Counted from the first letter of the stretch, positions 3,163 through 41,687 are shown. The stretch: DNA of 64,000 nt from a virus (IMGVR_UViG_3300016471_001099:32001-96000); one strand, 5' to 3'. Notes: generated by a model from the letters alone, not told the origin. Numbers and translations: made by a program.

Positions 3163-3174
3163 GAACGAAAGCTA

Positions 3175-3250
3175 CCGCGTTTGACGGGCAGCCCCCGGGG
3201 CCTGCACTCCCCGGGGGCCAGGCGCCCGAATGGGGCTGCACCCGTCGCGG
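3175..3250. other. Long GC-rich imperfect stem-loop in the intergenic gap; candidate structured RNA or leader
   Basis: GACGGG 3183-3188 pairs with CCCGTC 3241-3246; CAGCCCC 3189-3195 with GGGGCTG 3232-3238; CGGG with CCCG; GCCTG with CAGGC. Confidence 0.55.
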
Positions 3251-3301
3251 AATTAACCGCCAGATCGGATCACCCCCTCCCTTGTCGAGTTACCTGCCAC
3301 G

Positions 3302-9935: not shown

Positions 9936-10000
9936 AGATCGATAGATCGGTTTATTAAAACGAATATTAAAACCTTACGCTCATAATCGCCGTAGTCGTT

Positions 10001-10006
10001 TATTAT
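10001..10006 (+). promoter_or_regulatory. Putative -10 element (TATTAT), short-leader transcript
   Basis: TANNNT 10 nt before ATG 10017 in an AT-rich gap; no SD before that ATG. Confidence 0.3.
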
Positions 10007-10016
10007 GTAGCCAGAC

Positions 10017-13000
10017 ATGACGAACGAACAAGTTTCTCAGGAAGCCGACTACCTCTACAAGTCTTTGAACGCTCAGTTCAACATAGACGAAGCGCAGGGG
10101 ATAGTAGAGGCGTTCGTCGCAGGCATAGGAAACAAGGACTCCGTCGGAGACATATGTCTACCTGGTTGTTTCACGTCGTCGTTGAAGCGCAGAAAACCGA
10201 GAGTGGTTTGGGGTCACGACTGGAACTCCCCGATCGGAAAAGTTCTGGAAATTTACGAGGTGGGCCCCAACGATCCGCGTCTTCCGGCGAAGATGCGCAA
10301 GGCGGGGATAGGCGGGCTCTACGCGCGGGTTCAGTTCAACCTGAAGGCGGAAAAAGGCAAGGAAGCGTTCGCAAACGTGTCGTTCTTCGGAATGGAACAA
10401 GAGTGGTCCATAGGTTACAAAACTCTGGACGCCGTGTTCGATCCGGTTCAGACCGCAAACCTGCTGAAAGAAGTCGAGCTGTACGAAGTGTCGCCCGTTC
10501 TTCACGGCGCCAACCAATTGACGGGGACGATTTCCATAAAGGCCGATTCGGTTGAGGCCGAGACCAAGGAGAAGGCAGCCAGCAAGCCGGTTCTTCGCGA
10601 TCCGAAGGGCGGGTTGACGGCGGCTGGAAGAGCGCACTTCAAGCGAACCGAAGGCGCGAATCTCAAGCCAGGCGTGAAGGGTCCGGCCGACACTCCAGAA
10701 AAAATGCGAAGGAAGGGTTCGTTCCTGACTCGTTTCTTCACCAACCCCAGCGGTCCGATGAAGAAACCGAACGGGGAGCCGACGAGACTCGCCCTTTCCG
10801 CCGCGGCTTGGGGGGAGCCCGTTCCCAAGGACGCGTCCGACGCGGCGAAGTTGGCCGCCAAGGGAAGAAGATTGTTGGAGCGGTACGAAAATACCAAGAA
10901 AAAGAAAAAGGACGATTCCGACTCGGTTGAGAGCAAGAACCACGTCGCGGCGATATACGCGGCGATGACTTCTCCGCAAAACGAAGTTTTCGGTAGGGCT
11001 TCGCAGCTGACCAGGGCGCTGGCAACGAGATTCGGAGGGCCGGTCAGACTCGTCACGGCCGACAACGACATAGCCGTTTTCGAGATGGGCGCCGGCGACT
11101 CGACGGAGACGATGCGCGTCGCGTATCACTACGACGGAGACGAATTCATGTTCGGGACGGCACAAAAAGTCAAACCCGAAACCGTGTACATACCGGTCAA
11201 CGACTCCAACGCCGGGCAAATTCAAAACGGCGTGGCGATGGGCATATCGGCGGTCGAGGACAAGCCGGGATCGCATTGTTGTCCGGGTTGCGCGCACGGA
11301 GGCAACTGCGACGCCACCGTCGCGTTGGGGAACAATGAAAATCCGAAGATCGCGTTCCTGAAGCTCAAGTCGCTCGGCGATCAATTGGACTTCAAGGTCG
11401 TTCCGGTCGACGGAGGATTTGTCCTTCAGGGTTTTGGATTCCTCACCGAGGAAGCACAAAATTACGTCATCGGCAAAATAGAGAACGAACCGGAACAGAA
11501 GTTGCTGAATCCCGTCGGTAGTCTCGCCAGGAGGACGATAGGCGTTCCCAACGCCAGGGCATCGTTCAACATCGATACCAACCCATTCACGGCCAGAGAC
11601 GCGGACTTGGACAAATTGGTCCTCGAGGGAAACCCGCTCGTCAACCTGGGAAGAGGAATTCCCGACCCGACGCCTTTCGGGGCGCCCGACATCCCCGCCG
11701 TTGGGAAACCTGGCGTTCCCGAGCGTTACGTTCCTAACGTGGGCGGAAGAAGACCGATCGCTCCGAGAATGCCGGCGGTTCCCGAGCCTGACGAAATTCC
11801 GGAGCCGGCGAGGGAACCCAATAAGCAACCGAAGCCGGAAAGAACTCCGGTTACTCCGAGAAGGCCGAACAGAGAACCGGTCCCGGCTCCGGCTCCTCCG
11901 GAGAGAGAACCGGTTACCGAACCATCCGTGCCGCAACCCGAAAGAGAACCGGTCCCGGTTCCGAGAAGACCCGAAAGGGAGCCAACGAGGCCTACCGTAC
12001 CCGTTCCGCCGAGAAGACCCGTTCCGGTTGGAAGGGCGAGCAACGAGGACTTCGCAATAGCGGCGATGGGCGGAGGAAGGAGAACTCCGAAAGAACTGGC
12101 CGACGAGTTGGCCCAATTGGATTCGTCCGATCGTCCCAGCAGGCAAACGAGACAGCGCCGCGTCAGGGACGCCGGAATAGATCAAATGCGAAGGTTGGCG
12201 CTCCTTGACGACGCCGAAGCCGGAATGAGCGGACCCTACGGCGAAGGCAGAAAGTACGAAGAAATCGACAGTCTGATAGAGAGCCCCGCGCTCGACGGAG
12301 ATCGAACTCTGCACCTAGACCCAAGCACAGGAAAAATTTACGTCGCCGATCCGATCGAGAGAGAATACCTCTCGTCTAGGTTCGGAAACGATTATTTCCT
12401 GGAAAACGCCTACATGGACGAATGGGACTGGGATGAAATAGACAACGTCGGCTACGACGACATGGGCAACCTCGTAAGAAGGAGTCCGACCGGAGACGAA
12501 ATCATATTCAGCAGGGAACAATTTGGTTCGACCGGAACCGACGCCGGAATGGCGTCTCGCAAGACCTCCAGGAGCGAATCGGCCGATCTCGGAAGAAAGA
12601 TATGGCTGGAAAGAACGCACGACAGAATTTCGCTCGAGGAAGCCGGTAGGCGGAACGGGATAACGAGACAAGAGGCCAGGCAATTGGAGCTTCGTCACCA
12701 AAAATACTTGAGGGATCTCGGCGTCGATCATCCCAACAGAGTTCTTCGTTCGAAGGTGGACGACCCTTCGGTCGGGTTGACCGATGCGGAAAAGGATTTA
12801 TTGCGCAGGAGGCTCGACGGAGAATTGCTCCAGGAGGCCGCCGACCGTCTTCGTACGGACAGATACGCCGTCAGGCGAATGGAGCAACTTGCTCTCGCAA
12901 AAATGAGGAACGGAATGGCTGGGGACGAAACTTCGGCAGGTATGGCCGCTCGTTCCGGGGGCAGGGCGGTAGAAGCCGACCGCCCAAAAGCCCGACGGGC

Positions 13001-16000
13001 CAAAGGGCCCGTAAGCCGAAGAAAAAGAAACGCGGTTGATCCGACCTTTCTCCAAATACTCGATTCGCTGAAGGACAGCGGACCGACGAACATCACGAGC
13101 AGACAAAGAATACGGTTGGCGTCGATGATGCGCCTTCGCACGGCGATCCAAAACAAAATAAATTACATGTTGGCCACCGACGCAAGAAAGAGAAGATTGT
13201 CGAATCTCGGTCCGGAAATAGAGGACCTGAATAAAGGAATACGCGGACCATTCGAATCCCTGGCGGAGGCGGCCAGGCTCGCAACCGGTCGACCGTCGGA
13301 CCTCGTTTCTTCGGTCATGAAGACGGCCAACGGGGATCACGATCCGCTCGATCTGGACGGATCGATAAACGTTCAGGTGTTCGAAGCAATGCTGTCCACG
13401 GGTGGTGACGTGGCCGCCGTGGCGCGCACCATGGGAATGGACGAGGAAGTCGTAAAGATCAGGACAAATGCCCATGCCATGAGAGTTCTAGCTTCGTCGC
13501 GACCGGCGAAGATGAGAATTCACAGGCGAATCGAGGAGATGGGCGACAAACTTACTTCCAAAGAAAAAATCATGTTGCGAATGTGGATAAACGGAGCATC
13601 GAATCTAGACATCGCCGAAAAATTAGGTTCTGGAATGGACGAAAAATCCGTCATATCGTCCAGGTCGGCGGCCTTGAAAAAGATAGGAATAGACGTCGAT
13701 TCACCCGAACTGACCAGCAAGATAGTCAGCGGAAGAATTTTCTACGACGAGCACGGTTTGTTCTTCGGCCTCACCGACGAAGCCGGAAGAACTACGTACA
13801 ACAGAATCGGCGACGGTCCGTCGGCGGGAATGGCGAAAAGATCGACGAGCGTCGTCGAGGCGGATTTCGGCGACGGAAGAAGGGAATACGCGGTATCCAG
13901 GGTCGTAGCCAGGGACAGGTCCTCGGGAAACGAAGAGTCGGTCATGCTGATGCCATTGAGGGGCGACGACGAAACGACCGTTTCCGCCTTGGTTGGCAAG
14001 GCGTTGCTCGGCGACGACTCGCGAGGATTCAATCTCGAATTCCCCGCGACTTTGACGAAGTCCGGCGGCCGAATAGTCGCCGTTTCCGACGGAAGAGGCA
14101 AGGCGGTTCCGTATTACGGGGAAAGAGCGTTCGATCCGGGCGAGCCGGTGGTGATGGACGGTCCGTTGCGTTCCGCCAGGGCGAGGGCCAGAAAAATATC
14201 GGCGCTAAGGGAGAACGATACCGCTTCTCGAATAAAAACAGGTCAAGACGTGATCGGATCGGAGGCGAGATATTCAAATCTCGTCAAAGCCATGGACCGC
14301 TTGGTTTCCACCGGTGACTGGATAGGCGGGGATCTTGGCGTAACAGGAAGGGTTCCCGACGCCGACACGATGCTCAGGTACGGAATAGACGCCGACGTTG
14401 ACGGAAGTCCGATCGTTCCGTCCAACTCCAGCAGGGAGCAATTCGTGCTTCGCCAGGCCGAGTGGTTCCTGGAGAGGAATCCGAACGCCACCGCCGAAGA
14501 ACTCGATTCTTTCGTCGAGCAAGCGAACGAGGCAAGAATCAATCAAATAAGCAGGAAGATCGATTTGGCCGGAAAGGAACTTGCGAGAGTCACCCACGCG
14601 AGGGACTCGATGGAGGCGAGAAGGGCGCAAAACGTCGTGGATCTCGAAACCTTGGATCCCGAGATTGCGAGAGCACTTTCCGCGGAAACGGCCTTCATTT
14701 CCGGCTTGTCGGGAACGGAAATGGATTCCTCCGGGATTTCGCAAGGGGCGGACGGCTTCGTTTACGCGGTCCACAAAGGACCGGACAGACTCGCAGGAGG
14801 AGTACTCGATCCTTCTCGTTCCGTCGGTAGGGCCAGGAATGCGATCGACGTCGCCGGTCAGGGGGATACGAGGGGAGCCAACAGGATATACGTCGACCGT
14901 TTCGTCCAGTCCGCCAACGCCGAGTCGGAGATGGCGAAATTAGCCGACGATCTTTTGGCGTCGGTTTCAAGAGGGGACCGATCGATATCGGTCGCTCCGG
15001 CGATTCGAGCATCTCTAGCTTCGTATTCGCCGCTGATGGCGAGAGTGATGAACGGAGAAGGATACTTCAATTTGGAGAATTTCGACGAGGCAAGAAGATC
15101 CGCGATCGCCCTCGAAATAGGGAAATTCGCGTCGTTGCGGAAAGAACGATCCGAACGCTACGGAAAAATAATGGAGTCGTTGCGCAAGCACGGCGGGAAG
15201 AACATGGACCAGATTCTTTCGGCCGAGGCGGATCCCATATCCGCCCTGCTCTCCACGAATTTTTACGGTAGGTACGCCGACGACGACCTTCCCGAGGACG
15301 TCGTCGCGTTCAAACCGGGTTTCGTGGACAATTTGACTCGTCGTTGGGACCCGCTCGACGAGGAGATGTTGCGACGCTGGGACTCGACCGGATCCCTCAG
15401 GGGTGGCGCATTTTTGACCGTCGGCAGGGAGGATTCCGAAATAGTGAGGGGCGGTCTTCTCGGGCCGACTTCCGAGGCCCAGATAGTCGCCCCGCTCAAG
15501 CCGCTGATAGGTGTTTCCACACCGGTTTCCGTCCTGAGCGACGACAGCGAATCTCGCGCGCTCGTGTCGGCTCTCGGGCCGGCGATAGTTGCGAGAGCCA
15601 TAAAAATGCACAAGCGCGACGGTTTTGTGGACGTTGAAACCGTGCTGACCGACCCCGACTTGGCTCCGTCAGGATTCTCGTACGCCGAAACAGAAGCGGA
15701 GGCCGGAATGGCCGCGTTCGAGCCGCGAAGACCCATACTCGACGAGCGCGGAAGACTCGACCCGGTGCTCACTCGCGACGAGGCGATAGCCGACGACAGG
15801 GACGAAAGGGCAAGCGAAGGAGGCCAGATAGGTCGTCTTCTCGTTCCCCAATCTTCTTCCGTTTTCGTCGAGGCTCCGCCGAACGACCTGACGCCGGAAA
15901 CGAGAAGGGCTCAGTGGGCGGTCGGGTACACGGATTCGGTAGCAGACGTCATGCCGGAGCTCGGATATCCGCAAAGAATGGTTCACGTGGTTTCGCCGTC

Positions 16001-19000
16001 GGCATTGCCGCCCGACAACACCAAATTCCCGGTAGGCGACGAAGGGCAATTGCTTATGCTCGATCAGGAGCCGATAGATTTTCTCGCTCAGGCGTTGAAC
16101 GACGTAAACGGTTTGACGCGTGCCGAAAAAGAGGCGCAAAGAGAGGCGCTGGGCGACAGGGGATTCGATACGGAAGCCGACCCCGACTCGGACTTCACCC
16201 CGATCGAAAGATCACCCATTTATCTAGTAGTGGAAACCGTGAACGAACCCGACCTGCAGGGTCCGGGATACGACGGACGAAGAAGAACGAGAATCGTTCG
16301 CGTTCGCGAGATACCGAGAATGAGATTGTCCATGAGGGCCGACGACGATCAGCCCGGCGGAGGCCCGTATTGGAGAAGCCTGGATGCAGAGGCAGTGGCA
16401 CGGGGAGAGCCCGGGCGAACGACGACGGAAGGTCTCGGATTCTTGGATCTTTTGATAGACGTGGATCCAAATTGGGACGGAGATTTGGTTGACGACACGA
16501 GGGTCGTGCGCGTGAAGCCGGAAAACATCGTCGGCAGAATAGTTTCGGAATCGGAGCTCTGGAATACTTCCAGAATAACCAGGGAAATTTATTTAGGTGA
16601 AGGGGCGCGCACGGCTACGTACCGAAGACCGATCAGTCGTTTCGGGGACGAAACCGAGGCCGGCATGACGACCACGAAGAGAGGAATGGATCTCGTCGCA
16701 AGGACAAATAAATACCGCCCGAGCGAGGACGGAGAATACGTCATACCGGAATCCGTCATGCCCCGCAGGGATCAGGACAGGATGTTCGAGATCGCGCGGA
16801 CGATATCGTCCGGCGAATTCGATCCCCTTGACTGGAGGACCGAGGGAGAACTTGCGGCCCTACTGGAAAAAGCCGAAAACGTATTCCCGATCAAACCGAC
16901 TAGGCGCCATCCGCATCACGACGACGAGAGACTCGGTCGCCTGTACGACGTCACGAGAGCCAGGAACGGCTTCGTGTACCCGCTATACCGAAATAGGGAA
17001 GCGACGATGAACTTCAATTTCGGACAGCTTCTGAGTTTCGATCCGAATACTTCTGTCTACTCCTATTTGGATGGCGTGAATCCGGAGGTTTATTACTTCC
17101 CGGTGCGCATAGGCAGAACGACGTACGGCGCCGACGACTTTTCGTATCACCCTGCCTCGAGAATCGGATACGTCAGATTGATGCAAGACAAAAAAGGTCA
17201 TTACTACGAGATGAGGAAATGGAACCATCCGAACAATTCGGATCCGAATTCGTACGGATCGGCAATAAATTGGACCGACGACGGCGATTCTTTCAAACTA
17301 ATCGAGGAGGAAGGAAAATTCCATCTTTCTCGCAATAAAACCCTGGACGATCGTCTCGGTTTTCTGGGGGATTCGCCGCAAAAAATTCTTGCAGAAATAG
17401 CCAGGAGGGCCCCCACTTACCCCTCTGGGGAAACCTCATTCTGGGATTTGGCGATGAGGGAAACTCCATCCTTCGACGGAGACGGATATCCGACGAGACG
17501 CAGAACCGGTTACGCGGAACTTCCGGGGACTCCGACGGTGACCGAATCCACCGACATGAACGGCTTGCGACTGTTGATCGACGCCGCCAACAGGGACGGG
17601 GTCGGATTGAAACTTTCCGTCGTAGCGGGATTCAGGCCGGGAGAAAAATCGTATTCGAGGGTGACGGACAGCGAAGTGTTCATGCCCAGATTGGCCAGAG
17701 GAGAAATCGATCCGACGACGAGGGAATTCGTATCCGATCCGGACGGGATGGATCATTTGATCGGTTTTGATTCGTCCGGAACTGCGATTGCGCACGAACT
17801 GTCCGAAGTTTTGATGAATAACGAAACGAATCCCTCGTCGCCGAGGAGGTCCGTTGATCACTTCCCTGATTACGAAGACGGCGTAACGGAAGCCGGAATG
17901 TCGGCACCGATAGACAGATACGTCAGGACGACCGAGCCGACCAGGGACGACGAAGGAACTTCCGAGGGACGTCGCGAGGTTCAGATAGTCGATCTTCCGT
18001 CTACCCAATCGGCTAGGAACGGAGGAAATTACGACGACAGCCCCGCCTCGGTGATCGCGGCCGCCGTCGACAAAGTCAGGGCCATGGATTCGGACGCGGG
18101 AGCGGATTTCAACGACGAAAAACACGGACTTACTTTCTCGTACCCGAGCAGCATTAAGGGCACTACCGGGAAAAAGGAACTACGCAATAGAACCCTGATA
18201 AATCCGATAGTCGTTTACGGAGAGTACGACCCGGAGACGAACGAAACCTACATCCTCGCCACGGACGAGACCGGGGTTACGAGGCTCGTTCCGATGTCCA
18301 AAGTCGATTTGAAGGCGATGGTGGCCGGAGATCCGAACGCTGGCGACCATTCCGGAAATCCGGACGTTCAGGACGGAACCTATGCCACGTACGTCGTGGG
18401 CGAAGAAATCGTCGGCGGAAAAACGCAAACCAGAATATTCAATACCGAAAGAATGAAGCCCGTCCTAGGTTCTCCGAGGACGACCAGCGTCGTCGACGAC
18501 CAAGGTGCTCCGACGGGTCGGAGCGAAAGGATCGTTACGCAACCTCGCCCCACAACCACGGACGCGGAATCCGCACCGAGCATAGAAGCCAGCGATTCGG
18601 ACGATCCGTTCTTTTTGCAACACATGGAGCCACCGAGACCCCAGGCTTTCAACGCACAAACGACCATGCCAGTTGGGGATGGGGATGTGCAACTATTCCC
18701 AGGAACCGATAAGCCGACGGCATGGGAGGTGGCGAAAGGATTGGCGGCCGGTGATCCAAAGGCCATACTCGCTCGCAAGGCGGACGAAATGATGCTGTGG
18801 GACAAGATACGAAAAGGGATGCAAAAGTGGTTGAAACCGTGGGGTAAGCACGAATCAAAAATAATAAAGGACGAATCCGGTGCGCCAGTGATAAACCCGG
18901 CGAACGGATTGCCGTTTTATAGGAGCCCCTATAGAAAACCGTGGACTCCGTGGGGAAATCCGCTAGACGAAAACGGAAAAGAACTTTCCGATGGAATTCG

Positions 19001-22000
19001 TGGAGAATTGGACAAAATAAGTGGTTGGCGGGAATTCGGCGAGTGGCTGAAAACCAAGAAACTGGCTTTTTTCGACGTCGAGACGACCGGAATACCGAAC
19101 GGTTCGCTAGAAGCTGGACAAGCCCTGCAGGTCGCAGTGATAATGGTGGAAGACGGGAAGTTCGACAAGCCGAAACGACTCGAGATTTGGATCAATCCCG
19201 GTTCCACCCCGTTGGAACCGTGGGTTGTAAAACACATCAAGTACGACGGAAAAACCATACCCGACGCATTAAGAATGTTTCCGGAAAAATTCGAATCGCC
19301 CGAACAAGCAAAACAGAAAATAGCGGAATTCATAGGCCAAGACGCAGTCGTTTTGTCTCACAATTTTAGAAATTTTGACTCGCGAGTCTGGAGACAGCTG
19401 ATGGGGGATCATCCCACGCTGGGCTGGATTGACACCCTCGCCATAGCCAACTGGATGTTCGCCATAGATAACGAACGAGCAAAAAGCATAAACGCATTGG
19501 AACGCTCGAGCGGAAGATATTCAATGATGAATTGGTTTACGGGCTTGGTAACGATAGATCTTCCCGGGGGAAAGCGATGGGGCTCCAGGGGTAGGAAACC
19601 GGGAGTTCTGGATAGGATCGCCCGCAGAGCCACTGGGCCACTTACTTTCACCCCGGCCCTATCCAAAAAGAAAGCCGTTCCCCAGTGGTATCCAAAGACA
19701 TCTGGTTCGCAATCCAACGAAGCGTTGGCGAAATATTTCGGGATTCCGCAGGTCAAGGCACACGACGCAATGGAAGATGCATCGGTGAGTTTCCGTGCGT
19801 TGTTAGAAATTATCTCCCTCGGGGAAAAATGGGACTCGGCCAGTTTGATGTTTCGTCCGGAATGGGTCAAGTGGGTTCAGTACCAAACGGACGAACAGTA
19901 TGCGGCCGACGTTTCGACGTGGAGAAGGGCAAACGGAATAACCGACGGGCAACGGGAAACGTTGTTCGATTCTGGACCGAGCCAACAAGGGCCGACACCT
20001 CCGCCGGGACCGGGGTCTTCCGGCGGTGGCTCCAATCGGGGACCGTCCTCTGGCGGCGGAGCCGGCGACGACCAAGGTCCTCCGAACGATGGTTCGTGGT
20101 CCACCGGCGGAGATGATCCGGATCGTAGATTTTTGTATCAGACTCCGAGCGGGGTCAAGGTGTTCGAAAGTTACGGCGGTATATATTTCGAACTCACCTC
20201 GGTGTCCCCGTCGGACGGCGCCGAGCAATCCGTATTGGTCGCAAAAACGATATCCGATGCAAGATTGCAAGGATACGGATTCCAATTCCACTACGGAACG
20301 AAATCAAACGGAGAGCCGGCTCGCTACAGGCTCCTCTCGTTGGAGGTTGTTCCGAGGAGCGACGTTACCGAATCTCAGGCGAGACAAATGGGAGTATCCG
20401 GTTGGGAACTTCACGGAATAGACGCAGCCGACGGAAAACTAAAACGTTTTGAATTTTCGCTTTTGAATACGGGTGAGGCCGAAGGCCCAAAGACCAGCAA
20501 TATGACCGAATTGCCGCTTTTCGTTTACGGGGATCCGATTTCTCGCACTTACGGCGTGGTGGGAGACGGTGCGCCAAGAACTCCGCTTCAGTATGCAGAT
20601 TATGCGAGAAGGGTCGCCTACAACAGGGGCAGATCCGACGACGGCCCGTCGGCCGGAATGTCGGGTCTGACCAACAGGGACGGGGTAACCAATTCGACCG
20701 ATTATTGGACGGCCAACGAAAACGACTACGAAATGGTCAGAATGACCGATGCACAACTCGTTTCCAGACTGTCTTCGGACAGGACGAGGTTCGAAAACCT
20801 ATTCCACGCCGGGCCGGGCGAAAACGTTTCGGCATCGAAAGTTCTCGACTCGGTGGCGGCGGCCAACAGGATAATGAGACTAAGGTCGAATGATTCGGTA
20901 GACAACAACGGTTTTACTGTCGCCCTGTCTCGTTCGGGATACAAACTTTCTGGTTCTTTCTCTCCTCCGCCGGGGGTCATGGACGGAAGTTACGTTCTTC
21001 CGTCTTCGTACGTTGCGACGAGGTCGGAGATGGCGAAAAACGCAAAACTTTCCATGATGCTCGATTTTTCTATCGCAAACGGAGGACTAAGAAACGCTGT
21101 AGAAAGGGCGAGCAGATTGTCGAGAATTCCGGCAAGAGAATTGATCGGAAGGATCGCCGCGCACGATTACCCAACCTACGCCGATGAGACCTACTACAGA
21201 AAATTCCGCAACGCATCCGAATTAATATCCGGAGGGACGGAAACCCCGTCTTCGCTCGGACTACTGATAGATCCATCGTCGGATCCGAGAACGGCGGCGA
21301 TACTGACGGATAGAGCGGCGATGATTCTCGGCGTAAATACCCTCGGATATACGGGTGTTTTTGCGAGGGGCGGAAGAAATTATTCGCAAATGGAAACGTC
21401 GGACCTGATGAACGAATTCAACGAATCCGTTTCCGATCTTTTCTCGTTCGATCATTCGGGTAGGTACGAAACGCCGGAATTCAGAATAAAGGCGGATGCC
21501 ACCAGGGATTCGCTGAGAAAAATTTCCGACGAAATGAGAAACAGATATTTCTCCTCGCTTCCCGAGGCGGCGCCGTCGTCTTCGGTTTCGGACGAGGCAG
21601 AAGCGGGCATGAGTTCCGGAAACTCTCCTTTCGGGGAAGCGGACGGACTGCCGATACTCAGCGGTTCAAAGTGGTTGGACGCCCGCCTCCACGCCATATA
21701 CGGGGACGTCGAATACGAGAAACAAGCGGCCAAATTCGGCGACAGATTCAGGACGTTGCCTCAAAGAAACTGGGACTCCCCGACCGACGACGACCTAGTT
21801 GATGTCTACCACTACGCCACGATGCTCCATCACGATGCCCTAATAGAGGAGTTGACCAGAAGAAACGAGAGGTCGGATATGGTCGACTTTGTGTCCAGCG
21901 ACCCGGTGGACAACGGATCTATTGCCGTCATGGACAAAGTGTCGGATTTTTCCGGAGCGCCGAAACAACGCATCGGCGAATTGATTTTGCGCGGCAGGGA

Positions 22001-23753
22001 CGTCGCCGTAACCAGACGCTTGGCGGCCATGGACCCGTTCGCCAGGGCGGAGGAAATGGACGCAATCAGGCGCAGGAAAGCGTTCGCAAGATTGATAGAG
22101 GACAAAAAGCGGGAACTCGGGGACGATTTTGCCGCGTGGCTAGCCGCCCAATCCATAAAAGGCGAATCCGAGACTAGAACCGGAAGGCGACGCTCGGAAT
22201 TCGAGGATTTGATCGGTTCGTCCGGTGGAGGATTCTTCGACGAAACTCCAGGCGAAGCCATGGACGGTCTTTCCGACCATATGGGAATGGAAAGGGACGA
22301 ATCGGACGGCGACGACACGGAGGCGGGAATGGCGGGCAGGCGCCCCTTCATACGTCAGCGCTACGACGTGAAACCCGTGGACGGGGGATTCGTGATAATA
22401 GACCTAGACAATAGGAACGCCGTTTCTAGCAGGGTTTTCAAAGATAAGCGCGAGGCGCTACGCGGTGCGGCCAAGATGGACAGAGGGGACAGAAGTTTTG
22501 ATCCGTTCGCAAGTCCGCAACCGACGCCGCCACCAAGAACGATATCCGAAGCGATCGCATCGGACCCGGCCGCGCCAAAACCAAAAGATTCGAGCGAAGC
22601 CCAACCGAGTTTGTTCGACGACAACGGGGACCCAAACGTCGGAATGTCCTCCGGCTCCTTGCCGAACAGGCTCAGATTTTCTCCGAGGAAGAGAACCGAG
22701 GAGCGAATAAGCAGGGACAACGTAAGGACCGCAATGACGGAGTACGAGACTGGAAGGGCATCCATCCCGTATCCGTCACCGGAAGACGTGCCGGTATCGA
22801 GACTAATGGGCGGATACGCCGCCGCGGATTCTTCGCTTCACACAGTCATCGGACGATTGGAGCAAATAGCATCGGCGCCCGACGACGACGCTCCGGGCGC
22901 AGAAACGAGGGACGAAATAACTCGTCTCATCTCGAACATGGAAAAATTGCAAAAACGCAGAAACTATTTCTACAACCAGCTGAGAGACCGACTGGATAGC
23001 TCGGATCCCGCATACCAGACGCTGGAGGGGTGGCACGCGGAAAGAGCCGGATTGGACAGGGAATCCACGACTCGTTTCGGCTCCGGAAATTTGCCCGGTT
23101 ACGTTTTGCCTTCGGGGTTGGGGAGATACGGTCTATCCGATTCGCAGATATCACCGAAATACTCGAACCAGTCCGGCGACGCCGCGTTCCTCGAGAACAT
23201 GATCAGCGATGCGATAGGCGAGTATTCGTCCGATTTCTCCGTTCCCAAGGAGGAAGAGTATTACATCCGCTCGGAAATGAATCGAGTGTTGCGTTCCATC
23301 CAGAACGACGTGAGCGAAATGTCCAGGAAAAACAGGGATTCCGTAATGAAATTCGGACAGAGATCGGCGAGAATCGGAGCTCAGACGATAGTTGCGGCGT
23401 CTCGAATTTCCACCGGAGAAGACGTGAGGAAAGCGATACTTTCGGCCGGATTGAAGAAAATGATGCAGGACGGAGGAGCAAGATTAGGCCTCGCCTACTT
23501 GATAAACGCAGTGGACGTGGGACTAATAACTCAGTCCGACGCCAAAACGATGCTGAGGAATGCCAAGTCTTCGTCGGACGTCGTCGCCGAAAGGATCAGC
23601 AAAGCTCAGAGCATGACGGCAAGGAGTCAGATGTCCAGAATGATTTCCGACATGTCGGGGACATCCAGTGGCAGAAAGTCTTCCGAAAGGGGAATTTCCG
23701 ATAAGCGTCTGTCAATGATTACCGAAACGCTTTCTTCGGAGCTAGTCAAGTAA
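10017..23753 (+). CDS. 4578-aa giant protein: HK97-type prohead protease, DUF6321-like domain, then AGM-delimited modules (HTHs, ART-like, WYL-like, DEDDh exonuclease)
   Basis: Residues 1-175 carry protease motifs D..GD, WGHD...PIG, WSIGY, LYEVSPV..GAN. KGGLTAAGRAHF...GANLKPGV is DUF6321-like (from memory). FFDVETTG...SHN..FD...DTL...HDAMED marks the exonuclease. 11 xGM linker sites. Confidence 0.85.
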   Translation: MTNEQVSQEADYLYKSLNAQFNIDEAQGIVEAFVAGIGNKDSVGDICLPGCFTSSLKRRKPRVVWGHDWNSPIGKVLEIYEVGPNDPRLPAKMRKAGIGGLYARVQFNLKAEKGKEAFANVSFFGMEQEWSIGYKTLDAVFDPVQTANLLKEVELYEVSPVLHGANQLTGTISIKADSVEAETKEKAASKPVLRDPKGGLTAAGRAHFKRTEGANLKPGVKGPADTPEKMRRKGSFLTRFFTNPSGPMKKPNGEPTRLALSAAAWGEPVPKDASDAAKLAAKGRRLLERYENTKKKKKDDSDSVESKNHVAAIYAAMTSPQNEVFGRASQLTRALATRFGGPVRLVTADNDIAVFEMGAGDSTETMRVAYHYDGDEFMFGTAQKVKPETVYIPVNDSNAGQIQNGVAMGISAVEDKPGSHCCPGCAHGGNCDATVALGNNENPKIAFLKLKSLGDQLDFKVVPVDGGFVLQGFGFLTEEAQNYVIGKIENEPEQKLLNPVGSLARRTIGVPNARASFNIDTNPFTARDADLDKLVLEGNPLVNLGRGIPDPTPFGAPDIPAVGKPGVPERYVPNVGGRRPIAPRMPAVPEPDEIPEPAREPNKQPKPERTPVTPRRPNREPVPAPAPPEREPVTEPSVPQPEREPVPVPRRPEREPTRPTVPVPPRRPVPVGRASNEDFAIAAMGGGRRTPKELADELAQLDSSDRPSRQTRQRRVRDAGIDQMRRLALLDDAEAGMSGPYGEGRKYEEIDSLIESPALDGDRTLHLDPSTGKIYVADPIEREYLSSRFGNDYFLENAYMDEWDWDEIDNVGYDDMGNLVRRSPTGDEIIFSREQFGSTGTDAGMASRKTSRSESADLGRKIWLERTHDRISLEEAGRRNGITRQEARQLELRHQKYLRDLGVDHPNRVLRSKVDDPSVGLTDAEKDLLRRRLDGELLQEAADRLRTDRYAVRRMEQLALAKMRNGMAGDETSAGMAARSGGRAVEADRPKARRAKGPVSRRKRNAVDPTFLQILDSLKDSGPTNITSRQRIRLASMMRLRTAIQNKINYMLATDARKRRLSNLGPEIEDLNKGIRGPFESLAEAARLATGRPSDLVSSVMKTANGDHDPLDLDGSINVQVFEAMLSTGGDVAAVARTMGMDEEVVKIRTNAHAMRVLASSRPAKMRIHRRIEEMGDKLTSKEKIMLRMWINGASNLDIAEKLGSGMDEKSVISSRSAALKKIGIDVDSPELTSKIVSGRIFYDEHGLFFGLTDEAGRTTYNRIGDGPSAGMAKRSTSVVEADFGDGRREYAVSRVVARDRSSGNEESVMLMPLRGDDETTVSALVGKALLGDDSRGFNLEFPATLTKSGGRIVAVSDGRGKAVPYYGERAFDPGEPVVMDGPLRSARARARKISALRENDTASRIKTGQDVIGSEARYSNLVKAMDRLVSTGDWIGGDLGVTGRVPDADTMLRYGIDADVDGSPIVPSNSSREQFVLRQAEWFLERNPNATAEELDSFVEQANEARINQISRKIDLAGKELARVTHARDSMEARRAQNVVDLETLDPEIARALSAETAFISGLSGTEMDSSGISQGADGFVYAVHKGPDRLAGGVLDPSRSVGRARNAIDVAGQGDTRGANRIYVDRFVQSANAESEMAKLADDLLASVSRGDRSISVAPAIRASLASYSPLMARVMNGEGYFNLENFDEARRSAIALEIGKFASLRKERSERYGKIMESLRKHGGKNMDQILSAEADPISALLSTNFYGRYADDDLPEDVVAFKPGFVDNLTRRWDPLDEEMLRRWDSTGSLRGGAFLTVGREDSEIVRGGLLGPTSEAQIVAPLKPLIGVSTPVSVLSDDSESRALVSALGPAIVARAIKMHKRDGFVDVETVLTDPDLAPSGFSYAETEAEAGMAAFEPRRPILDERGRLDPVLTRDEAIADDRDERASEGGQIGRLLVPQSSSVFVEAPPNDLTPETRRAQWAVGYTDSVADVMPELGYPQRMVHVVSPSALPPDNTKFPVGDEGQLLMLDQEPIDFLAQALNDVNGLTRAEKEAQREALGDRGFDTEADPDSDFTPIERSPIYLVVETVNEPDLQGPGYDGRRRTRIVRVREIPRMRLSMRADDDQPGGGPYWRSLDAEAVARGEPGRTTTEGLGFLDLLIDVDPNWDGDLVDDTRVVRVKPENIVGRIVSESELWNTSRITREIYLGEGARTATYRRPISRFGDETEAGMTTTKRGMDLVARTNKYRPSEDGEYVIPESVMPRRDQDRMFEIARTISSGEFDPLDWRTEGELAALLEKAENVFPIKPTRRHPHHDDERLGRLYDVTRARNGFVYPLYRNREATMNFNFGQLLSFDPNTSVYSYLDGVNPEVYYFPVRIGRTTYGADDFSYHPASRIGYVRLMQDKKGHYYEMRKWNHPNNSDPNSYGSAINWTDDGDSFKLIEEEGKFHLSRNKTLDDRLGFLGDSPQKILAEIARRAPTYPSGETSFWDLAMRETPSFDGDGYPTRRRTGYAELPGTPTVTESTDMNGLRLLIDAANRDGVGLKLSVVAGFRPGEKSYSRVTDSEVFMPRLARGEIDPTTREFVSDPDGMDHLIGFDSSGTAIAHELSEVLMNNETNPSSPRRSVDHFPDYEDGVTEAGMSAPIDRYVRTTEPTRDDEGTSEGRREVQIVDLPSTQSARNGGNYDDSPASVIAAAVDKVRAMDSDAGADFNDEKHGLTFSYPSSIKGTTGKKELRNRTLINPIVVYGEYDPETNETYILATDETGVTRLVPMSKVDLKAMVAGDPNAGDHSGNPDVQDGTYATYVVGEEIVGGKTQTRIFNTERMKPVLGSPRTTSVVDDQGAPTGRSERIVTQPRPTTTDAESAPSIEASDSDDPFFLQHMEPPRPQAFNAQTTMPVGDGDVQLFPGTDKPTAWEVAKGLAAGDPKAILARKADEMMLWDKIRKGMQKWLKPWGKHESKIIKDESGAPVINPANGLPFYRSPYRKPWTPWGNPLDENGKELSDGIRGELDKISGWREFGEWLKTKKLAFFDVETTGIPNGSLEAGQALQVAVIMVEDGKFDKPKRLEIWINPGSTPLEPWVVKHIKYDGKTIPDALRMFPEKFESPEQAKQKIAEFIGQDAVVLSHNFRNFDSRVWRQLMGDHPTLGWIDTLAIANWMFAIDNERAKSINALERSSGRYSMMNWFTGLVTIDLPGGKRWGSRGRKPGVLDRIARRATGPLTFTPALSKKKAVPQWYPKTSGSQSNEALAKYFGIPQVKAHDAMEDASVSFRALLEIISLGEKWDSASLMFRPEWVKWVQYQTDEQYAADVSTWRRANGITDGQRETLFDSGPSQQGPTPPPGPGSSGGGSNRGPSSGGGAGDDQGPPNDGSWSTGGDDPDRRFLYQTPSGVKVFESYGGIYFELTSVSPSDGAEQSVLVAKTISDARLQGYGFQFHYGTKSNGEPARYRLLSLEVVPRSDVTESQARQMGVSGWELHGIDAADGKLKRFEFSLLNTGEAEGPKTSNMTELPLFVYGDPISRTYGVVGDGAPRTPLQYADYARRVAYNRGRSDDGPSAGMSGLTNRDGVTNSTDYWTANENDYEMVRMTDAQLVSRLSSDRTRFENLFHAGPGENVSASKVLDSVAAANRIMRLRSNDSVDNNGFTVALSRSGYKLSGSFSPPPGVMDGSYVLPSSYVATRSEMAKNAKLSMMLDFSIANGGLRNAVERASRLSRIPARELIGRIAAHDYPTYADETYYRKFRNASELISGGTETPSSLGLLIDPSSDPRTAAILTDRAAMILGVNTLGYTGVFARGGRNYSQMETSDLMNEFNESVSDLFSFDHSGRYETPEFRIKADATRDSLRKISDEMRNRYFSSLPEAAPSSSVSDEAEAGMSSGNSPFGEADGLPILSGSKWLDARLHAIYGDVEYEKQAAKFGDRFRTLPQRNWDSPTDDDLVDVYHYATMLHHDALIEELTRRNERSDMVDFVSSDPVDNGSIAVMDKVSDFSGAPKQRIGELILRGRDVAVTRRLAAMDPFARAEEMDAIRRRKAFARLIEDKKRELGDDFAAWLAAQSIKGESETRTGRRRSEFEDLIGSSGGGFFDETPGEAMDGLSDHMGMERDESDGDDTEAGMAGRRPFIRQRYDVKPVDGGFVIIDLDNRNAVSSRVFKDKREALRGAAKMDRGDRSFDPFASPQPTPPPRTISEAIASDPAAPKPKDSSEAQPSLFDDNGDPNVGMSSGSLPNRLRFSPRKRTEERISRDNVRTAMTEYETGRASIPYPSPEDVPVSRLMGGYAAADSSLHTVIGRLEQIASAPDDDAPGAETRDEITRLISNMEKLQKRRNYFYNQLRDRLDSSDPAYQTLEGWHAERAGLDRESTTRFGSGNLPGYVLPSGLGRYGLSDSQISPKYSNQSGDAAFLENMISDAIGEYSSDFSVPKEEEYYIRSEMNRVLRSIQNDVSEMSRKNRDSVMKFGQRSARIGAQTIVAASRISTGEDVRKAILSAGLKKMMQDGGARLGLAYLINAVDVGLITQSDAKTMLRNAKSSSDVVAERISKAQSMTARSQMSRMISDMSGTSSGRKSSERGISDKRLSMITETLSSELVK
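11760..12030 (+). repeat. Pro/Glu/Arg-rich degenerate repeats (PEREPVP-like linker)
   Basis: Recurrent (P/R)(E/N)REP(V/T/N) units in translation. Confidence 0.7.
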
Positions 23754-23804
23754 TTATTGTTGTTGCATTTGAATACGAACAATTCTTCTACAATTGGAGA
23801 GATT

Positions 23805-25414: not shown

Positions 25415-25618
25415 ATGAAACCTAGTTCTGGAGGTGGGTACACCCGTGGCAACCGTGTTATGGGTTATGATAAACCTGCACAAAATAACGGAGCTAAATT
25501 CAAATATCACTGCATAGCAACTGGCGAAAAACGCCAGTTTCCGTGCGGAAGTTGCGGCAACCACAAGGCTTGCCTCACCTCGACAATGCAATACAAGGAG
25601 CGAAAACATGGAACCTGA
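25415..25618 (+). CDS. Small Cys-rich protein (possible Zn finger)
   Basis: YHC..GEKRQFPCGSC...KAC; overlaps the start of the next gene. The start could be ATG 25460. Confidence 0.6.
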   Translation: MKPSSGGGYTRGNRVMGYDKPAQNNGAKFKYHCIATGEKRQFPCGSCGNHKACLTSTMQYKERKHGT

Positions 25619-33220: not shown

Positions 33221-33232
33221 GGACAATACGTC

Positions 33233-33238
33233 TATAAT
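33233..33238 (+). promoter_or_regulatory. Putative -10 element (TATAAT)
   Basis: Perfect hexamer in an AT-rich intergenic gap 50 nt before ATG 33289. Confidence 0.4.
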
Positions 33239-33288
33239 TGTTTAGTAATTGTCAAATCCCGTCCCCGGGAATAGAGGATTCAAGGCAA

Positions 33289-41685: not shown

Positions 41686-41687
41686 TA

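What the first reader, a model, noticed from the sequence alone, without database searches (positions are those of the whole stretch)
10017..23753. Prohead protease fused to about 4400 aa of cargo
Seen in sequence: an HK97-type protease occupies only the first ~175 aa of an uninterrupted 4578-aa ORF. Established: HK97-family proteases are typically about 200 aa, alone or fused to scaffold or capsid. Inference: the fusion forces co-packaging of many effectors, with the protease positioned to release them.
Basis: partly seen in the sequence, partly recalled or inferred. Interest (0 to 1): 0.8.

Follow-up and report, generated by a model that had tools for sequence, protein, structure and literature searches.

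The report
Protease-led phage cargo polyprotein
An uncultured freshwater phage fuses its capsid-maturation protease to about 4,000 residues of cysteine-free protein modules joined by a short Ala-Gly-Met tag, probably so that many proteins are loaded into the capsid as one chain and then cut apart for injection; no cut, packaging or injection has been measured.

Summary
Confirmed. Window 10017-23753 is one 4,578-codon frame in a 117-kb uncultured freshwater phage contig. Residues 24-181 are an S78 (HK97-type) prohead protease. Residues 1-505 match the whole ~560-aa protease gene of shorter relatives; the rest is cargo fused in frame. It is not an artefact. Related contigs carry 3,750-5,469-aa versions. 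Independent assemblies bridge the joint with only in-frame indels. Public data hold 234 clusters of 2,500-8,000-aa proteins that begin with this protease. Two of these, scanned here, carry ArdC-N, MPTase-PolyVal, UvrD, sigma-r4 and (one) exonuclease domains, so the family is polyvalent proteins with the peptidase at the N terminus. Ten acidic-Ala-Gly-Met-small motifs split the chain into modules. These modules align end to end with relatives and are gained, lost or duplicated between them. The motif marks 31 joints in a 60-kb block of giant genes between the protease and capsid genes. One relative has Gly-Ala-Met at the same joints. Five giants share a 40-aa leader, and 17,044 cargo residues hold no cysteine. 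Most likely this is capsid-loaded cargo cut at the joints. Cleavage, packaging and the cutting enzyme are unshown: the capsid protein lacks the motif, and S78 barely varies while the motif does. The scan reported this theme before on other DNA.

The parts
10017..23753 (+). Whole 4578-aa protease-led polyprotein ORF
   Evidence: Conserved as open frames of 3750-5469 aa in relatives. Covered by independent assemblies.
10086..10559 (+). Peptidase_S78 (HK97-type prohead protease) domain, aa 24-181; His motif at aa 63-69, Ser motif at aa 129-134
   Evidence: Pfam E 5.4e-10. phrog_80. 89-95% identical in relatives.
10596..10811 (+). DUF6321 domain, aa 194-265
   Evidence: Pfam E 6.6e-28
10017..11531 (+). 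Ancestral protease-gene module, aa 1-505: S78, DUF6321, a conserved domain at ~325-400, a Cys cluster at 421-431 and a C-terminal subdomain
   Evidence: The 548-590-aa protease genes of relatives match own aa ~12-453 by BLASTP. Their C-terminal tails resemble own aa ~445-505 by eye only. All 6 Cys of the ORF lie here.
11562..11705 (+). Leader motif (..RDADxDxxVLEGxPxxNxGRGxPDPTPxG), aa 516-563, shared with four other giants
   Evidence: BLASTP and HMM
11706..12056 (+). Pro-rich (PEREP/RRP) spacer, aa 564-680
   Evidence: Read from the translation
12060..12068 (+). Post-leader Ala-Ala-Met site (FAIAAM-GGG), aa 682-684. Equivalent sites follow the leader in o1866 (aa 78) and o5244 (aa 171).
12219..12227 (+). 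AGM joint 1 (aa 735-737)
   Evidence: aligned with AGM in three relatives
12543..12551 (+). AGM joint 2 (aa 843-845)
   Evidence: aligned with GAM in G003
12936..12944 (+). AGM joint 3 (aa 974-976)
   Evidence: SGAM in G001 and G003 at the same column
13824..13832 (+). AGM joint 4 (aa 1270-1272)
   Evidence: GGM in G001 and G002, GAM in G003
15702..15710 (+). AGM joint 5 (aa 1896-1898)
16659..16667 (+). AGM joint 6 (aa 2215-2217)
17892..17900 (+). AGM joint 7 (aa 2626-2628)
20652..20660 (+). AGM joint 8 (aa 3546-3548)
   Evidence: GAM in G003, followed by the conserved SGLTN
21603..21611 (+). AGM joint 9 (aa 3863-3865)
22323..22331 (+). AGM joint 10 (aa 4103-4105)
   Evidence: SGAM in G003
13548..13691 (+). 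GerE/LuxR-type HTH-like stretch, aa 1178-1225 (just under the Pfam cut-off)
   Evidence: Pfam E 8.4e-5, 22.6 bits against a cut-off of 23.5. Relatives carry Sigma70_r4 over the cut-off.
19047..19796 (+). DEDDh 3'-5' exonuclease, aa ~3011-3260
   Evidence: phrog_192 E 1.4e-13. PADLOC DEDDh E 4.9e-12. ExoI, ExoII and ExoIII motifs are conserved in five relatives at 24-45% identity.
7713..9935 (+). Portal fused to a MuF-like domain (context)
   Evidence: Pfam Phage_portal E 3.6e-50 and Phage_Mu_F E 6.7e-10
25608..27398 (+). o596: conserved gene that follows the protease ORF in all relatives. Acidic; its C-terminal twin domain is homologous to the C-terminus of the Gordonia phage GMA6 protease protein. 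Candidate scaffold.
27411..33011 (+). o1866: giant with the leader at aa 25-73, 3 AGM joints, no Cys
33238..41685 (+). o2815: giant with 4 AGM joints, a conserved HELNHVDD motif at aa 692, and a C-terminal paralogue of the giant's module 4
41682..44429 (+). o915: leader-bearing protein with an invariant HExGHxxD...E motif (candidate zincin-like peptidase)
47462..53008 (+). o1848: giant with the leader at aa 235-284, 2 AGM, no Cys
54443..64000 (+). o5244: 5244-aa giant that runs past the window end to window-equivalent 70177. Leader at aa 121-168, 11 AGM. The capsid gene follows at 70453-71844.

Best explanation
This is a real gene of an uncultured freshwater tailed phage whose nearest cultured relatives are actinobacteriophages. 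The complete head-maturation protease gene (S78 protease, DUF6321 and a conserved C-terminal part; aa 1-505) has been joined in frame to a cargo polyprotein. The cargo part consists of a 40-aa leader motif, a proline-rich spacer, and eleven modules separated by the joint [D/E]-x-[T/P/A]-[E/S]-Ala-Gly-Met-[S/A/G/T].

It belongs to a large, undescribed branch of the 'polyvalent proteins': many unrelated enzymatic and DNA-binding modules in one chain, encoded in the head module. It is the first of six giant proteins that fill 60 kb (51% of the contig) between the protease and capsid genes.

Proposed mechanism (inferred):
1. The chain enters the assembling prohead. Entry is either because it is part of the protease, which is an internal prohead protein in HK97-type phages, or through the shared leader.
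2. A phage-encoded protease then cuts at the small-small-Met joints, removing the leader and releasing the modules.
3. The cysteine-free modules stay in the virion and are delivered with the DNA. There they act on host nucleic acids and transcription: a DEDDh exonuclease and HTH modules in this protein; ArdC-N, helicase and sigma region 4 domains in relatives.

The fused S78 protease is the leading candidate cutter by position only (roughly 40%). A zincin-like peptidase inside the cargo block is the main alternative (roughly 30%).

Shown: the ORF, its conservation, the modularity, the joint motif, the leader, the absence of Cys and the family membership. Inferred: packaging, cleavage, the scissile bond, the cutter and injection.
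For: - ORF and protease.
- Head-module context: terminase, portal-MuF, then the protease ORF. The capsid gene lies 60 kb downstream, found with the capsid proteins of Streptomyces phage Gilgamesh and Gordonia phage GMA6.
- Fusion architecture: 548-590-aa protease genes of relatives match own aa ~12-453. The leader, which sits at aa 25-73 of o1866 and within the first ~285 aa of o5244, o915 and o1848, starts at aa 516 here.
- Modularity: AGM-bounded segments align end to end with AGM-bounded segments of relatives. Segment 5 is absent from three relatives. Segment 1 is absent from one and duplicated in another. Extra segments are inserted in G001.
- Population variants in freshwater runs duplicate segment 1 with end points at its two flanking joints, in frame.
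- The motif acts at protein level. Ala and Gly codons vary, with four codons each in use. The upstream residues are acidic and the downstream residues basic. A relative has GAM, and others have GGM, at the same alignment columns.
- Motif enrichment: 31 against 4.4 expected in the block, and 2 elsewhere in the contig.
- Cys-free cargo: 17,044 residues downstream of the leaders or first joints hold 0 Cys, against 0.73% in the rest of the contig. 113 of 120 family members have none beyond residue 600. Gilgamesh gp48 (4624 aa) also has none. This fits proteins that persist in an extracellular particle and may need to pass unfolded through the tail.
- Family: 234 clusters of protease-led giants. 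Two of them, scanned here, carry Sigma70_r4, KTSC, UvrD helicase, ArdcN and MPTase-PolyVal, and one also RNase_T.
- Each lineage has its own strongly enriched joint peptide with a common hydrophobic-small-Ser core.
- Precedents: polyvalent proteins, some with assemblin-like peptidases predicted to process them (PMC5512222). Head and ejection proteins of phage SPN3US are cut at a short consensus by its prohead protease (PMC10052503). A >4,400-aa gene product of Microbacterium phage Burro is virion-associated and apparently processed (PMC7302621).
Against: - No proteomic or biochemical datum exists for this phage; cleavage and packaging are inferred.
- The capsid protein has a helical delta-like N-terminal region but no small-small-Met site at its boundary. 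If S78 matures it, S78 does not need this motif.
- S78 is 89-95% identical between AGM and GAM users, and its catalytic motif regions are unchanged across lineages with quite different joints. This fits a broad-specificity enzyme or a different cutter.
- Only 2 of 11 modules of this protein have a recognisable function. Pfam, PDB sequence search, PADLOC and tblastn against 50,697 phage records found nothing for the rest, so 'effector' is unproven.
- If the protein is packed at the copy number usual for a prohead protease, the mass would be tens of MDa. That is possible but unverified.
Confidence: 0.55

Rival explanations
1. The chain is packaged and cut at the joints, but by a zincin-like metallopeptidase encoded inside the cargo block (o915 HExGHxxD, o2815 HExNHxDD) or in cis in relatives (MPTase-PolyVal), not by the fused S78 protease. 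S78 would then serve only as the carrier and the capsid-maturation enzyme.
For: - HExGH, an Asp three residues later and a downstream Glu are invariant in 12 o915-family sequences at down to 17% identity. This is the signature that Iyer et al. describe for a phage-type polyvalent-protein MPTase (PMC5512222).
- Relatives of the giant carry PF18818 MPTase-PolyVal (E 2e-44).
- The joints of all lineages share a hydrophobic residue (Met, Leu or Phe) after small or basic residues. This would suit the preference of many zincins for a hydrophobic residue just after the cut (my knowledge, not tested).
- The S78 domain does not vary with the joint dialect, and the capsid protein lacks the motif.
Against: - Pfam does not recognise o915 or o2815 as peptidases.
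- The AlphaFold model of the o915 domain was low-confidence and all-helical (pLDDT 52.8).
- Several family members show no MPTase domain in the same protein.
- HExxH is a short motif: 3 seen in the block against about 0.5 expected.
Confidence: 0.2
2. The protein is not cut. The AGM motif is a conserved flexible linker or a recombination 'boundary sequence' at which modules are shuffled, and the giant works as one multi-domain polyvalent protein, as N4 virion RNA polymerase is packaged unprocessed.
For: - Modules are gained, lost and duplicated exactly at the joints.
- Strain variants duplicate segment 1 between its two joints, where 9-12 nt of identity (GCCGGAATG) exist.
- GCC and GGA are over-used at the motif: 71% and 58% against 40% and 39% background.
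- Iyer et al. note polyvalent proteins that are transferred full length.
Against: - Conservation is at residue level, with varying codons. It includes acidic residues before and basic residues after the core, and switches to GAM/GGM at homologous joints. A DNA-level recombination signal does not explain this.
- The same kind of site directly follows the leader in three giants, as expected for leader removal.
- A linker has no evident need for an invariant Met.
Confidence: 0.15
3. The Met of each joint is an internal translation start, so the ORF is a run of formerly separate genes that lost their stops and are still expressed individually.
For: - Every joint has ATG followed by a small residue, as at true N termini.
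- Some joints have GAGG 5 nt upstream.
- Cultured relatives encode comparable functions as separate genes in the head module.
Against: - GAA is as frequent as GAG, and Ser, Asp or Gly replace Glu in 13 of 31 sites, so no Shine-Dalgarno sequence is conserved.
- No stop separates modules at any of more than 40 joints in five relatives.
- Ribosomes reading from the first start would make the full chain anyway.
- In other lineages the joint residue is Leu or Phe instead of Met.
Confidence: 0.05
4. The long frame is an assembly chimera or the product of frameshift errors that join separate genes.
For: None found.
Against: - Open frames of 3750-5469 aa in diverged relatives.
- 234 clusters of such proteins from JGI, ENA, Logan and NCBI.
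- Independent contigs from three studies, with only in-frame indels.
Confidence: 0.01

Closest known systems
Polyvalent proteins of phages and conjugative elements (Iyer, Burroughs, Anand, de Souza, Aravind 2017, PMC5512222)
   Same: Many unrelated domains sit in one very long polypeptide, encoded next to portal/terminase head genes and predicted to be packaged and injected. Relatives that share this N-terminal protease carry the hallmark ArdC-N, MPTase-PolyVal, UvrD helicase and HTH domains. A peptidase in the chain is predicted to process it.
   Different: [quoted passage not shown] The paper, as far as I read it, describes no repeated joint peptide, shared leader or absence of Cys. This particular protein has none of the hallmark domains detectable, only S78, DUF6321, an HTH-like stretch and DEDDh.
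T4 internal proteins and Alt with a capsid-targeting sequence; head and ejection proteins of phiKZ/SPN3US cut by the prohead protease (PMC10052503, PMC9026906)
   Same: Head-internal proteins carry a leader or propeptide and a short consensus cut site. The prohead protease removes the leader after assembly, and the proteins are ejected into the host.
   Different: Those are separate genes, mostly cut near the N terminus, and the protease is of the T4 gp21 type that cuts after Glu. Here up to 11 modules are concatenated, the protease is an S78 enzyme that is part of the substrate chain, and the motif centres on Met. Cleavage is shown there and not here.
Very large virion-associated gene products of actinobacteriophages: Microbacterium phages of cluster EK and Burro gp27 (>4,400 aa; PMC7302621); Streptomyces phage Gilgamesh gp48 (4,624 aa, MN234216)
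   Same: Genes of 13-14 kb in phages of Actinobacteria. Burro virions contain a ~250-kDa species taken to be a processed part of gp27. Gilgamesh has a portal-MuF fusion, then the giant gene, then an S78 protease gene and the capsid gene. Gilgamesh gp48 has no Cys and five Ser-Ala-Met sites.
   Different: There the giant is a separate gene, not fused to the protease. No sequence similarity to this cargo was found. No joint code has been described.
HK97 gp4 and other S78 prohead proteases, including protease-scaffold and MuF-protease fusions
   Same: Pfam family, the conserved motif regions where His and Ser lie, gene position after the portal, and a non-catalytic C-terminal extension in the ~560-aa relatives. 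A fusion of a MuF-like protein with the maturation protease is recorded in Microbacterium cluster EG.
   Different: The length is about 20 times that of the catalytic domain, and the extension is not scaffold or capsid but diverse modules.
Viral polyproteins with an embedded protease (picornavirus, retroviral Gag-Pol); a resemblance in how it may work only
   Same: One translation product holds the protease and its probable substrates, with short consensus joints.
   Different: No homology. This is a DNA phage, and the modules are accessory cargo rather than the replication core.

Membership tests
Peptidase S78 (HK97-type prohead protease) | Profile match over the curated cut-off | tested here: met
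   PF04586, 40.1 bits against a cut-off of 21, aa 24-181; phrog_80 E 1.7e-26
Peptidase S78 (HK97-type prohead protease) | Catalytic His and Ser in their conserved motifs | tested here: met
   VVWGHDW (aa 63-69) and EWSIGY (aa 129-134) are present and invariant across eight diverse family members. The assignment of the catalytic residues to these motifs rests on my knowledge of the family.
Peptidase S78 (HK97-type prohead protease) | Gene in the head module after the portal, and the only such protease in the genome | tested here: met
   Portal-MuF ends at 9935 and the ORF starts at 10017. Single S78 locus in the contig (the contig is about 79% complete).
Peptidase S78 (HK97-type prohead protease) | Cuts capsid or scaffold proteins inside the prohead | not testable with these tools
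   Needs biochemistry or virion proteomics.
Polyvalent proteins (Iyer et al. 2017) | Several unrelated domains in one polypeptide | tested here: met
   Eleven segments with no mutual similarity except one paralogue elsewhere in the block. S78, DUF6321, an HTH-like stretch and DEDDh were recognised.
Polyvalent proteins (Iyer et al. 2017) | Encoded in a phage packaging/head gene context | tested here: met
   Between portal-MuF and the capsid gene.
Polyvalent proteins (Iyer et al. 2017) | Hallmark domains (MPTase, ArdC-N, ART, helicases, methylases) | tested here: inconclusive
   None detected in this protein. Two proteins with a 73-80% identical protease domain carry ArdcN, MPTase-PolyVal and UvrD. 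An ART-like reading of segment 4 has only weak language-model leads (score 0.79-0.81) and a low-confidence fold.
Polyvalent proteins (Iyer et al. 2017) | Assemblin-like peptidase, when present, is C-terminal | tested here: not met
   Here, and in the family members inspected, the peptidase is N-terminal. This was an observed regularity of the 2017 data set rather than a definition.
Polyvalent proteins (Iyer et al. 2017) | Packaged in the virion and delivered to the host | not testable with these tools
   Indirect only: head-module position, shared leader, absence of Cys.
Leader-addressed, protease-processed head cargo (T4 IP/Alt, phiKZ/SPN3US type) | Shared targeting leader on several cargo proteins | tested here: inconclusive
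   A 40-aa motif is shared by five block proteins (E 1e-24 to 1e-26 with the HMM built from them; independent hits in relatives at 1e-18 to 1e-23). Its function is untested.
Leader-addressed, protease-processed head cargo (T4 IP/Alt, phiKZ/SPN3US type) | Cut-site consensus at leader and domain borders that is also used on capsid or scaffold proteins | tested here: inconclusive
   A small-small-Met site follows the leader in three giants, and 31 AGM joints exist. The capsid protein lacks it. The scaffold-like o596 has one GGM before its last domain, conserved in part of the family.

The most novel reading that the evidence does not exclude
Half of this phage's genome (60 kb, about 19,700 codons) encodes cysteine-free cargo polyproteins that are addressed to the prohead by a common 40-aa leader or by fusion to the maturation protease. 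They would be cut at a family-wide 'joint code' (small or basic residue, then Met/Leu/Phe, then a small residue, then Ser) into some 40 separate proteins, and then injected. If so, the joint code would let the injected proteome of hundreds of uncultured phages be read from sequence (234 protease-led clusters found here). The protease fusion would be a stoichiometric loading device unknown in model phages.
Probability: 0.35. Interest if true: 0.8.

Novelty: new variant of a known kind. Interest (0 to 1): 0.66.

Why it matters
Phage proteins delivered with the DNA decide the first minutes of infection: anti-restriction, takeover of transcription, nuclease defence. They are hard to recognise from sequence. 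This family offers three sequence-level marks of such cargo: position between the protease and capsid genes, a punctuating joint peptide, and a complete absence of cysteine over thousands of residues. The family is large (234 clusters of 2,500-8,000 aa), and its members carry known anti-restriction modules.

If the joints are cut, one gene supplies a dozen separate proteins at fixed ratio. The joints would then define the domain borders of many proteins of unknown function, ready for expression and structure work. It would also extend what an HK97-type protease gene can be. The 2017 survey of polyvalent proteins saw assemblin-like peptidases only at C termini, which does not hold for this family.

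Tried and rejected
- AlphaFold2 of module 4 (aa 1272-1897, six-sequence alignment): mean pLDDT 49, pTM 0.30. It was not used for fold search, so the ADP-ribosyltransferase reading of that module is neither supported nor excluded.
- AlphaFold2 of the o915 HExGH domain (12 sequences): pLDDT 52.8, all helices. No fold search was run, so the peptidase assignment stays at motif level.
- ESM Atlas. Module 4 gave only scores of 0.77-0.82 (DUF3626; an ART-PolyVal/PBECR5 cluster), which are leads only. The o915 domain gave no usable hit.
- PDB sequence search with the whole protein: no match at E <= 1.
- Word-based search for stand-alone homologues of module 4 (344-1096 aa): none.
- tblastn of cargo aa 737-3728 against 50,697 phage records: none.
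- Pfam at E <= 5 on the three HExxH regions: nothing relevant.
- Pattern scans of IMG/VR for o915 relatives returned only contigs already held.
- Protease-motif co-evolution was considered and dropped. The S78 domain is 89% identical between the AGM and GAM lineages, and G001 mixes AGM, GAM and GGM.
- Enrichment of small-small-Met in o596 homologues (54 against 14 expected) comes mostly from two homologous conserved positions, one inside a CxxC motif. It is therefore not independent evidence for S78 specificity.
- Complex prediction was not used, because no single binding partner for the leader could be nominated on evidence.
- Literature searches found no description of protease-led polyvalent proteins or of a joint code. 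The library lacks most subscription journals.
Full report
**1. Observation**

The window is bases 32001-96000 of a 117,419-bp IMG/VR viral contig, about 79% complete by CheckV. ORF 10017-23753 (+) is 4,578 codons without a stop.
- Pfam places Peptidase_S78 at aa 24-181 (E 5.4e-10, over the cut-off) and DUF6321 at 194-265. PHROGs call aa 14-270 a head maturation protease.
- The His and Ser motif regions are intact, and no other S78 locus exists in the contig.
- Upstream lie the large terminase (minus strand) and a portal fused to a MuF domain.
- The major capsid gene was not among the neighbours. tblastn with the capsid proteins of Streptomyces phage Gilgamesh and Gordonia phage GMA6 places it at contig 102,453-103,844. 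That is 60 kb downstream of the protease start, beyond the window.
- The space between holds ORFs of 4578, 547, 596, 1866, 2815, 915, 697, 1848, 315 and 5244 aa, all on the plus strand.

**2. Not an artefact**

A scan of IMG/VR with aa 1-494 gave 210 relatives.
- In them, the frame that holds the protease is 548-590 aa in most. In others it is 719-735, 890, 1022, 1154, 1434, 1758, 2770 or 3750 aa, or it runs off the fetched locus at more than 3,800 aa.
- Fetching whole frames gave 3750, 4384, 4502 and 5469 aa.
- Against these, the S78 domain is 89-95% identical, the rest of the protease module 68-81%, and the cargo only 33-53%, yet no frame is broken.
- Logan contigs of freshwater metagenome runs from three studies cover the ORF. 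A contig from a second study spans 9900-12264 without a gap, which covers the fusion point. The only length differences are +3 nt, -60 nt and duplications of 300 and 309 nt, all multiples of three.
- A search of 5.8 billion proteins, limited to lengths of 2517-8012 aa and scored on aa 1-500, found 234 clusters. They come from JGI, ENA, Logan and NCBI sources; where named at all, they are called 'HK97 family phage prohead protease'.

**3. Anatomy**

*Protease module.* The short (548-590 aa) protease genes of relatives match own aa ~12-453 by BLASTP. This covers the S78 domain, a variable middle part and a conserved domain at about aa 325-400. By eye, their Cys cluster and C-terminal tail resemble own aa ~420-505.

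*Leader.* At aa 516-563 comes a motif (RDADxDxxVLEGxPxxNxGRGxPDPTPxG). It recurs at aa 25-73 of o1866, 121-168 of o5244, about 53-90 of o915 and 235-284 of o1848.
- In three of these proteins an Ala-Ala-Met-small site follows it shortly after.
- An HMM of the motif finds it only in the clade with giant protease ORFs, always 450-630 aa into the frame. It also appears, in full or in part, in 26 of 120 family members.
- So the ORF reads as a complete protease gene joined to a cargo polyprotein of a kind that also exists unfused in the same genome.

*Joints.* After a Pro-rich spacer the chain is divided by ten Ala-Gly-Met motifs.
- Over all 31 such sites in the block the consensus is acidic at -4 and -3, Thr/Pro/Ala at -2, and Glu/Ser/Asp at -1. 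AGM is followed by Ser/Ala/Thr/Gly and then by basic residues.
- All four Ala and all four Gly codons occur, and GAA and GAG both occur for Glu. The signal is therefore in the protein, with only a moderate bias to GCC GGA.
- Shuffling gives 4.4 sites (maximum 11), and the remaining 16,576 aa of the contig have 2.

*Modularity.* The segments behave as cassettes.
- Each aligns end to end with a segment bounded by the same motif in relatives.
- Segment 5 is missing in three relatives. Segment 1 is missing in one and doubled in another. G001 has extra segments.
- In a full-length alignment, the AGM joints of this phage stand in the same columns as Gly-Ala-Met in G003 and as GAM or GGM in G001 and G002.
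- Strain variants in two runs duplicate segment 1, with end points at its two flanking joints.

**4. Cargo content**

- Recognised in this protein: a DEDDh exonuclease (phrog_192, PADLOC DEDDh) whose three motifs are conserved in five relatives at 24-45% identity, and a GerE/sigma-region-4-like HTH just under the Pfam cut-off.
- Module 4 has a paralogue at the C-terminus of o2815.
- Everything else is unrecognised, and both structure predictions failed.
- The wider family is informative. Two members with a 73-80% identical protease domain carry Sigma70_r4, KTSC, a UvrD-type helicase and, at the C-terminal end, ArdC-N plus MPTase-PolyVal; one also carries RNase_T. The precomputed domain lists of many others agree, and some add pentapeptide repeats and WYL. 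These are the hallmark modules of the polyvalent proteins of Iyer et al. 2017.

**5.

- All six Cys of the ORF lie in aa 47-431. In the block, every Cys of the giants lies upstream of the leader or of the first joint.
- 17,044 cargo residues hold none, against 0.73% in the other proteins of the contig, which would predict about 124.
- The four relatives show the same pattern. 113 of 120 family members have no Cys beyond residue 600.
- The unfused 4,624-aa gp48 of cultured Streptomyces phage Gilgamesh has none either.
- Inference: these proteins live in the extracellular particle and may have to pass the tail unfolded, so cross-linkable residues are excluded.

**6. The joint is one dialect of a family code**

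Each lineage of the 120 listed proteins has its own 8-30-fold enriched peptide: EAGM-S/A, DSGAM, TASM-S, VGSM, RGM-A, GGMRS, K/R-L/F-SSG, DGFASRG or GLAS. They share a small or basic residue, then Met/Leu/Phe, then a small residue, often followed by Ser.

**7. Mechanism**

The best reading has three steps: loading of the chain into the prohead, cutting at the joints, and delivery with the DNA.

Its precedents:
- T4 and phiKZ/SPN3US head cargo. Fourteen mapped sites with a short consensus are cut by the SPN3US prohead protease (PMC10052503).
- The processing role that Iyer et al. predict for peptidases in polyvalent proteins.
- The virion-associated, apparently processed >4,400-aa protein of Microbacterium phage Burro (PMC7302621).
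- Cultured relatives by portal and protease similarity (Gordonia Bendigovirus, Brevibacterium phage Cantare, Streptomyces phage Gilgamesh). In the same head module they encode separate genes for a VIP2-like ADP-ribosyltransferase, an RNA ligase and ~1,000-aa proteins (GMA6, Hanem), or a separate 4,624-aa giant (Gilgamesh).

Which enzyme cuts is open.
- *For S78:* it is in the chain and is the canonical in-capsid protease.
- *Against S78:* the capsid protein has a delta-like N-terminal region but no such site. S78 is nearly constant while the dialects differ.
- *For a metallopeptidase:* o915 has an invariant HExGHxxD...E in 12 sequences, o2815 has a conserved HExNHxDD, and relatives carry a Pfam MPTase.
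- *Against a metallopeptidase:* no profile or fold support for o915 or o2815.

The scissile bond (before or after Met) cannot be told.

**8. Novelty**

The class (polyvalent proteins; protease-processed head cargo) is known. Four features were not found in the literature I could search:
- the N-terminal position of the S78 peptidase, where the 2017 paper says assemblin-like peptidases are always C-terminal;
- the punctuating joint code;
- the shared leader;
- the cysteine-free rule.

The scan itself has reported the same theme on other DNA. One case is a 5,106-aa relative with the same AGM motif; others are lineages with DGFASRG, LSSG, PxGxM and GMRS-type joints. I re-derived those dialects independently from the protein family.

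Verdict: a real, well-conserved feature; a new variant of a known kind; the mechanism is plausible but unmeasured.

Noticed in passing
window 10017-64000 and on to contig 102177 (window-equivalent 70177): A 60-kb plus-strand block (51% of the contig) of giant ORFs lies between the protease start and the capsid gene. It holds 17,044 cargo residues without a single cysteine. The same holds in 113 of 120 family members and in Streptomyces phage Gilgamesh gp48.
   Followed up: yes
window 11562-11705; 27483-27629; 41838-41951; 48164-48313; 54803-54946: A ~40-aa motif (RDADxDxxVLEGxPxxNxGRGxPDPTPxG) is shared by five large block proteins. It lies near the N-terminus in four of them and right after the protease module in the fifth. 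It is a candidate capsid-addressing leader; its receptor is unknown.
   Followed up: partly
window 41682-44429 (o915), motif at about 43068-43091; window 33238-41685 (o2815), motif at about 35311: An invariant HExGHxxD plus a downstream Glu in the rare o915 family (only 10 representatives among 1.84 billion proteins), and a conserved HExNHxDD in o2815. These are possible zincin-like peptidases that Pfam does not recognise.
   Followed up: partly
window 12235-12548: Strain-level variants in freshwater runs: a tandem duplication of module 1 (300 or 309 nt) with end points at its two AGM joints, a 60-nt in-frame deletion and a 3-nt insertion. All come from low-depth contigs.
   Followed up: partly
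window 23757-25400 (o547): An Arg-rich, Cys-free protein with 2.8 copies of a 150-bp repeat (24685-25102) and two 48-bp units (24537-24632). Each unit encodes RRQ(Q/E)GM, so it may yield repeated small peptides if Gly-Met sites are cut.
   Followed up: partly
window 25608-27398 (o596): A gene conserved directly after the protease ORF in all relatives examined. It has an acidic Glu/Asp/Met-rich tract, CxxC clusters, and a twice-repeated C-terminal domain homologous to the C-terminus of the Gordonia phage GMA6 protease protein. It is a candidate scaffold or protease partner.
   Followed up: partly
window 11277-11309; 54470-54475; 45406-45411: A Cys-Cys-Pro motif recurs in the pre-leader N-terminal parts: the giant at aa 421-423, o5244 at aa 10-12 and o697 at aa 10-12. 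Pfam DUF3721 matches the N-termini of o315 and o5244. Relatives, but not this phage, carry a further Cys-rich insert between S78 and DUF6321.
   Followed up: no
window 374-2433 (minus strand): Adjacent genes for a PAPS-reductase-like protein (phrog_2302, E 5e-73) and a ParB-like nuclease or partition protein. This may be a DNA-modification pair.
   Followed up: no
window 7713-9935: The portal protein is fused to a MuF-like domain, as in Streptomyces phage Gilgamesh gp46 and some Microbacterium phages.
   Followed up: partly
L082 (Streptomyces phage Gilgamesh, MN234216) 31978-45852: A cultured phage has an unfused 4,624-aa giant (gp48) between the portal-MuF and S78 protease genes. It has no Cys and five Ser-Ala-Met sites (14-fold enriched). 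It is a tractable model for testing cleavage and packaging.
   Followed up: partly
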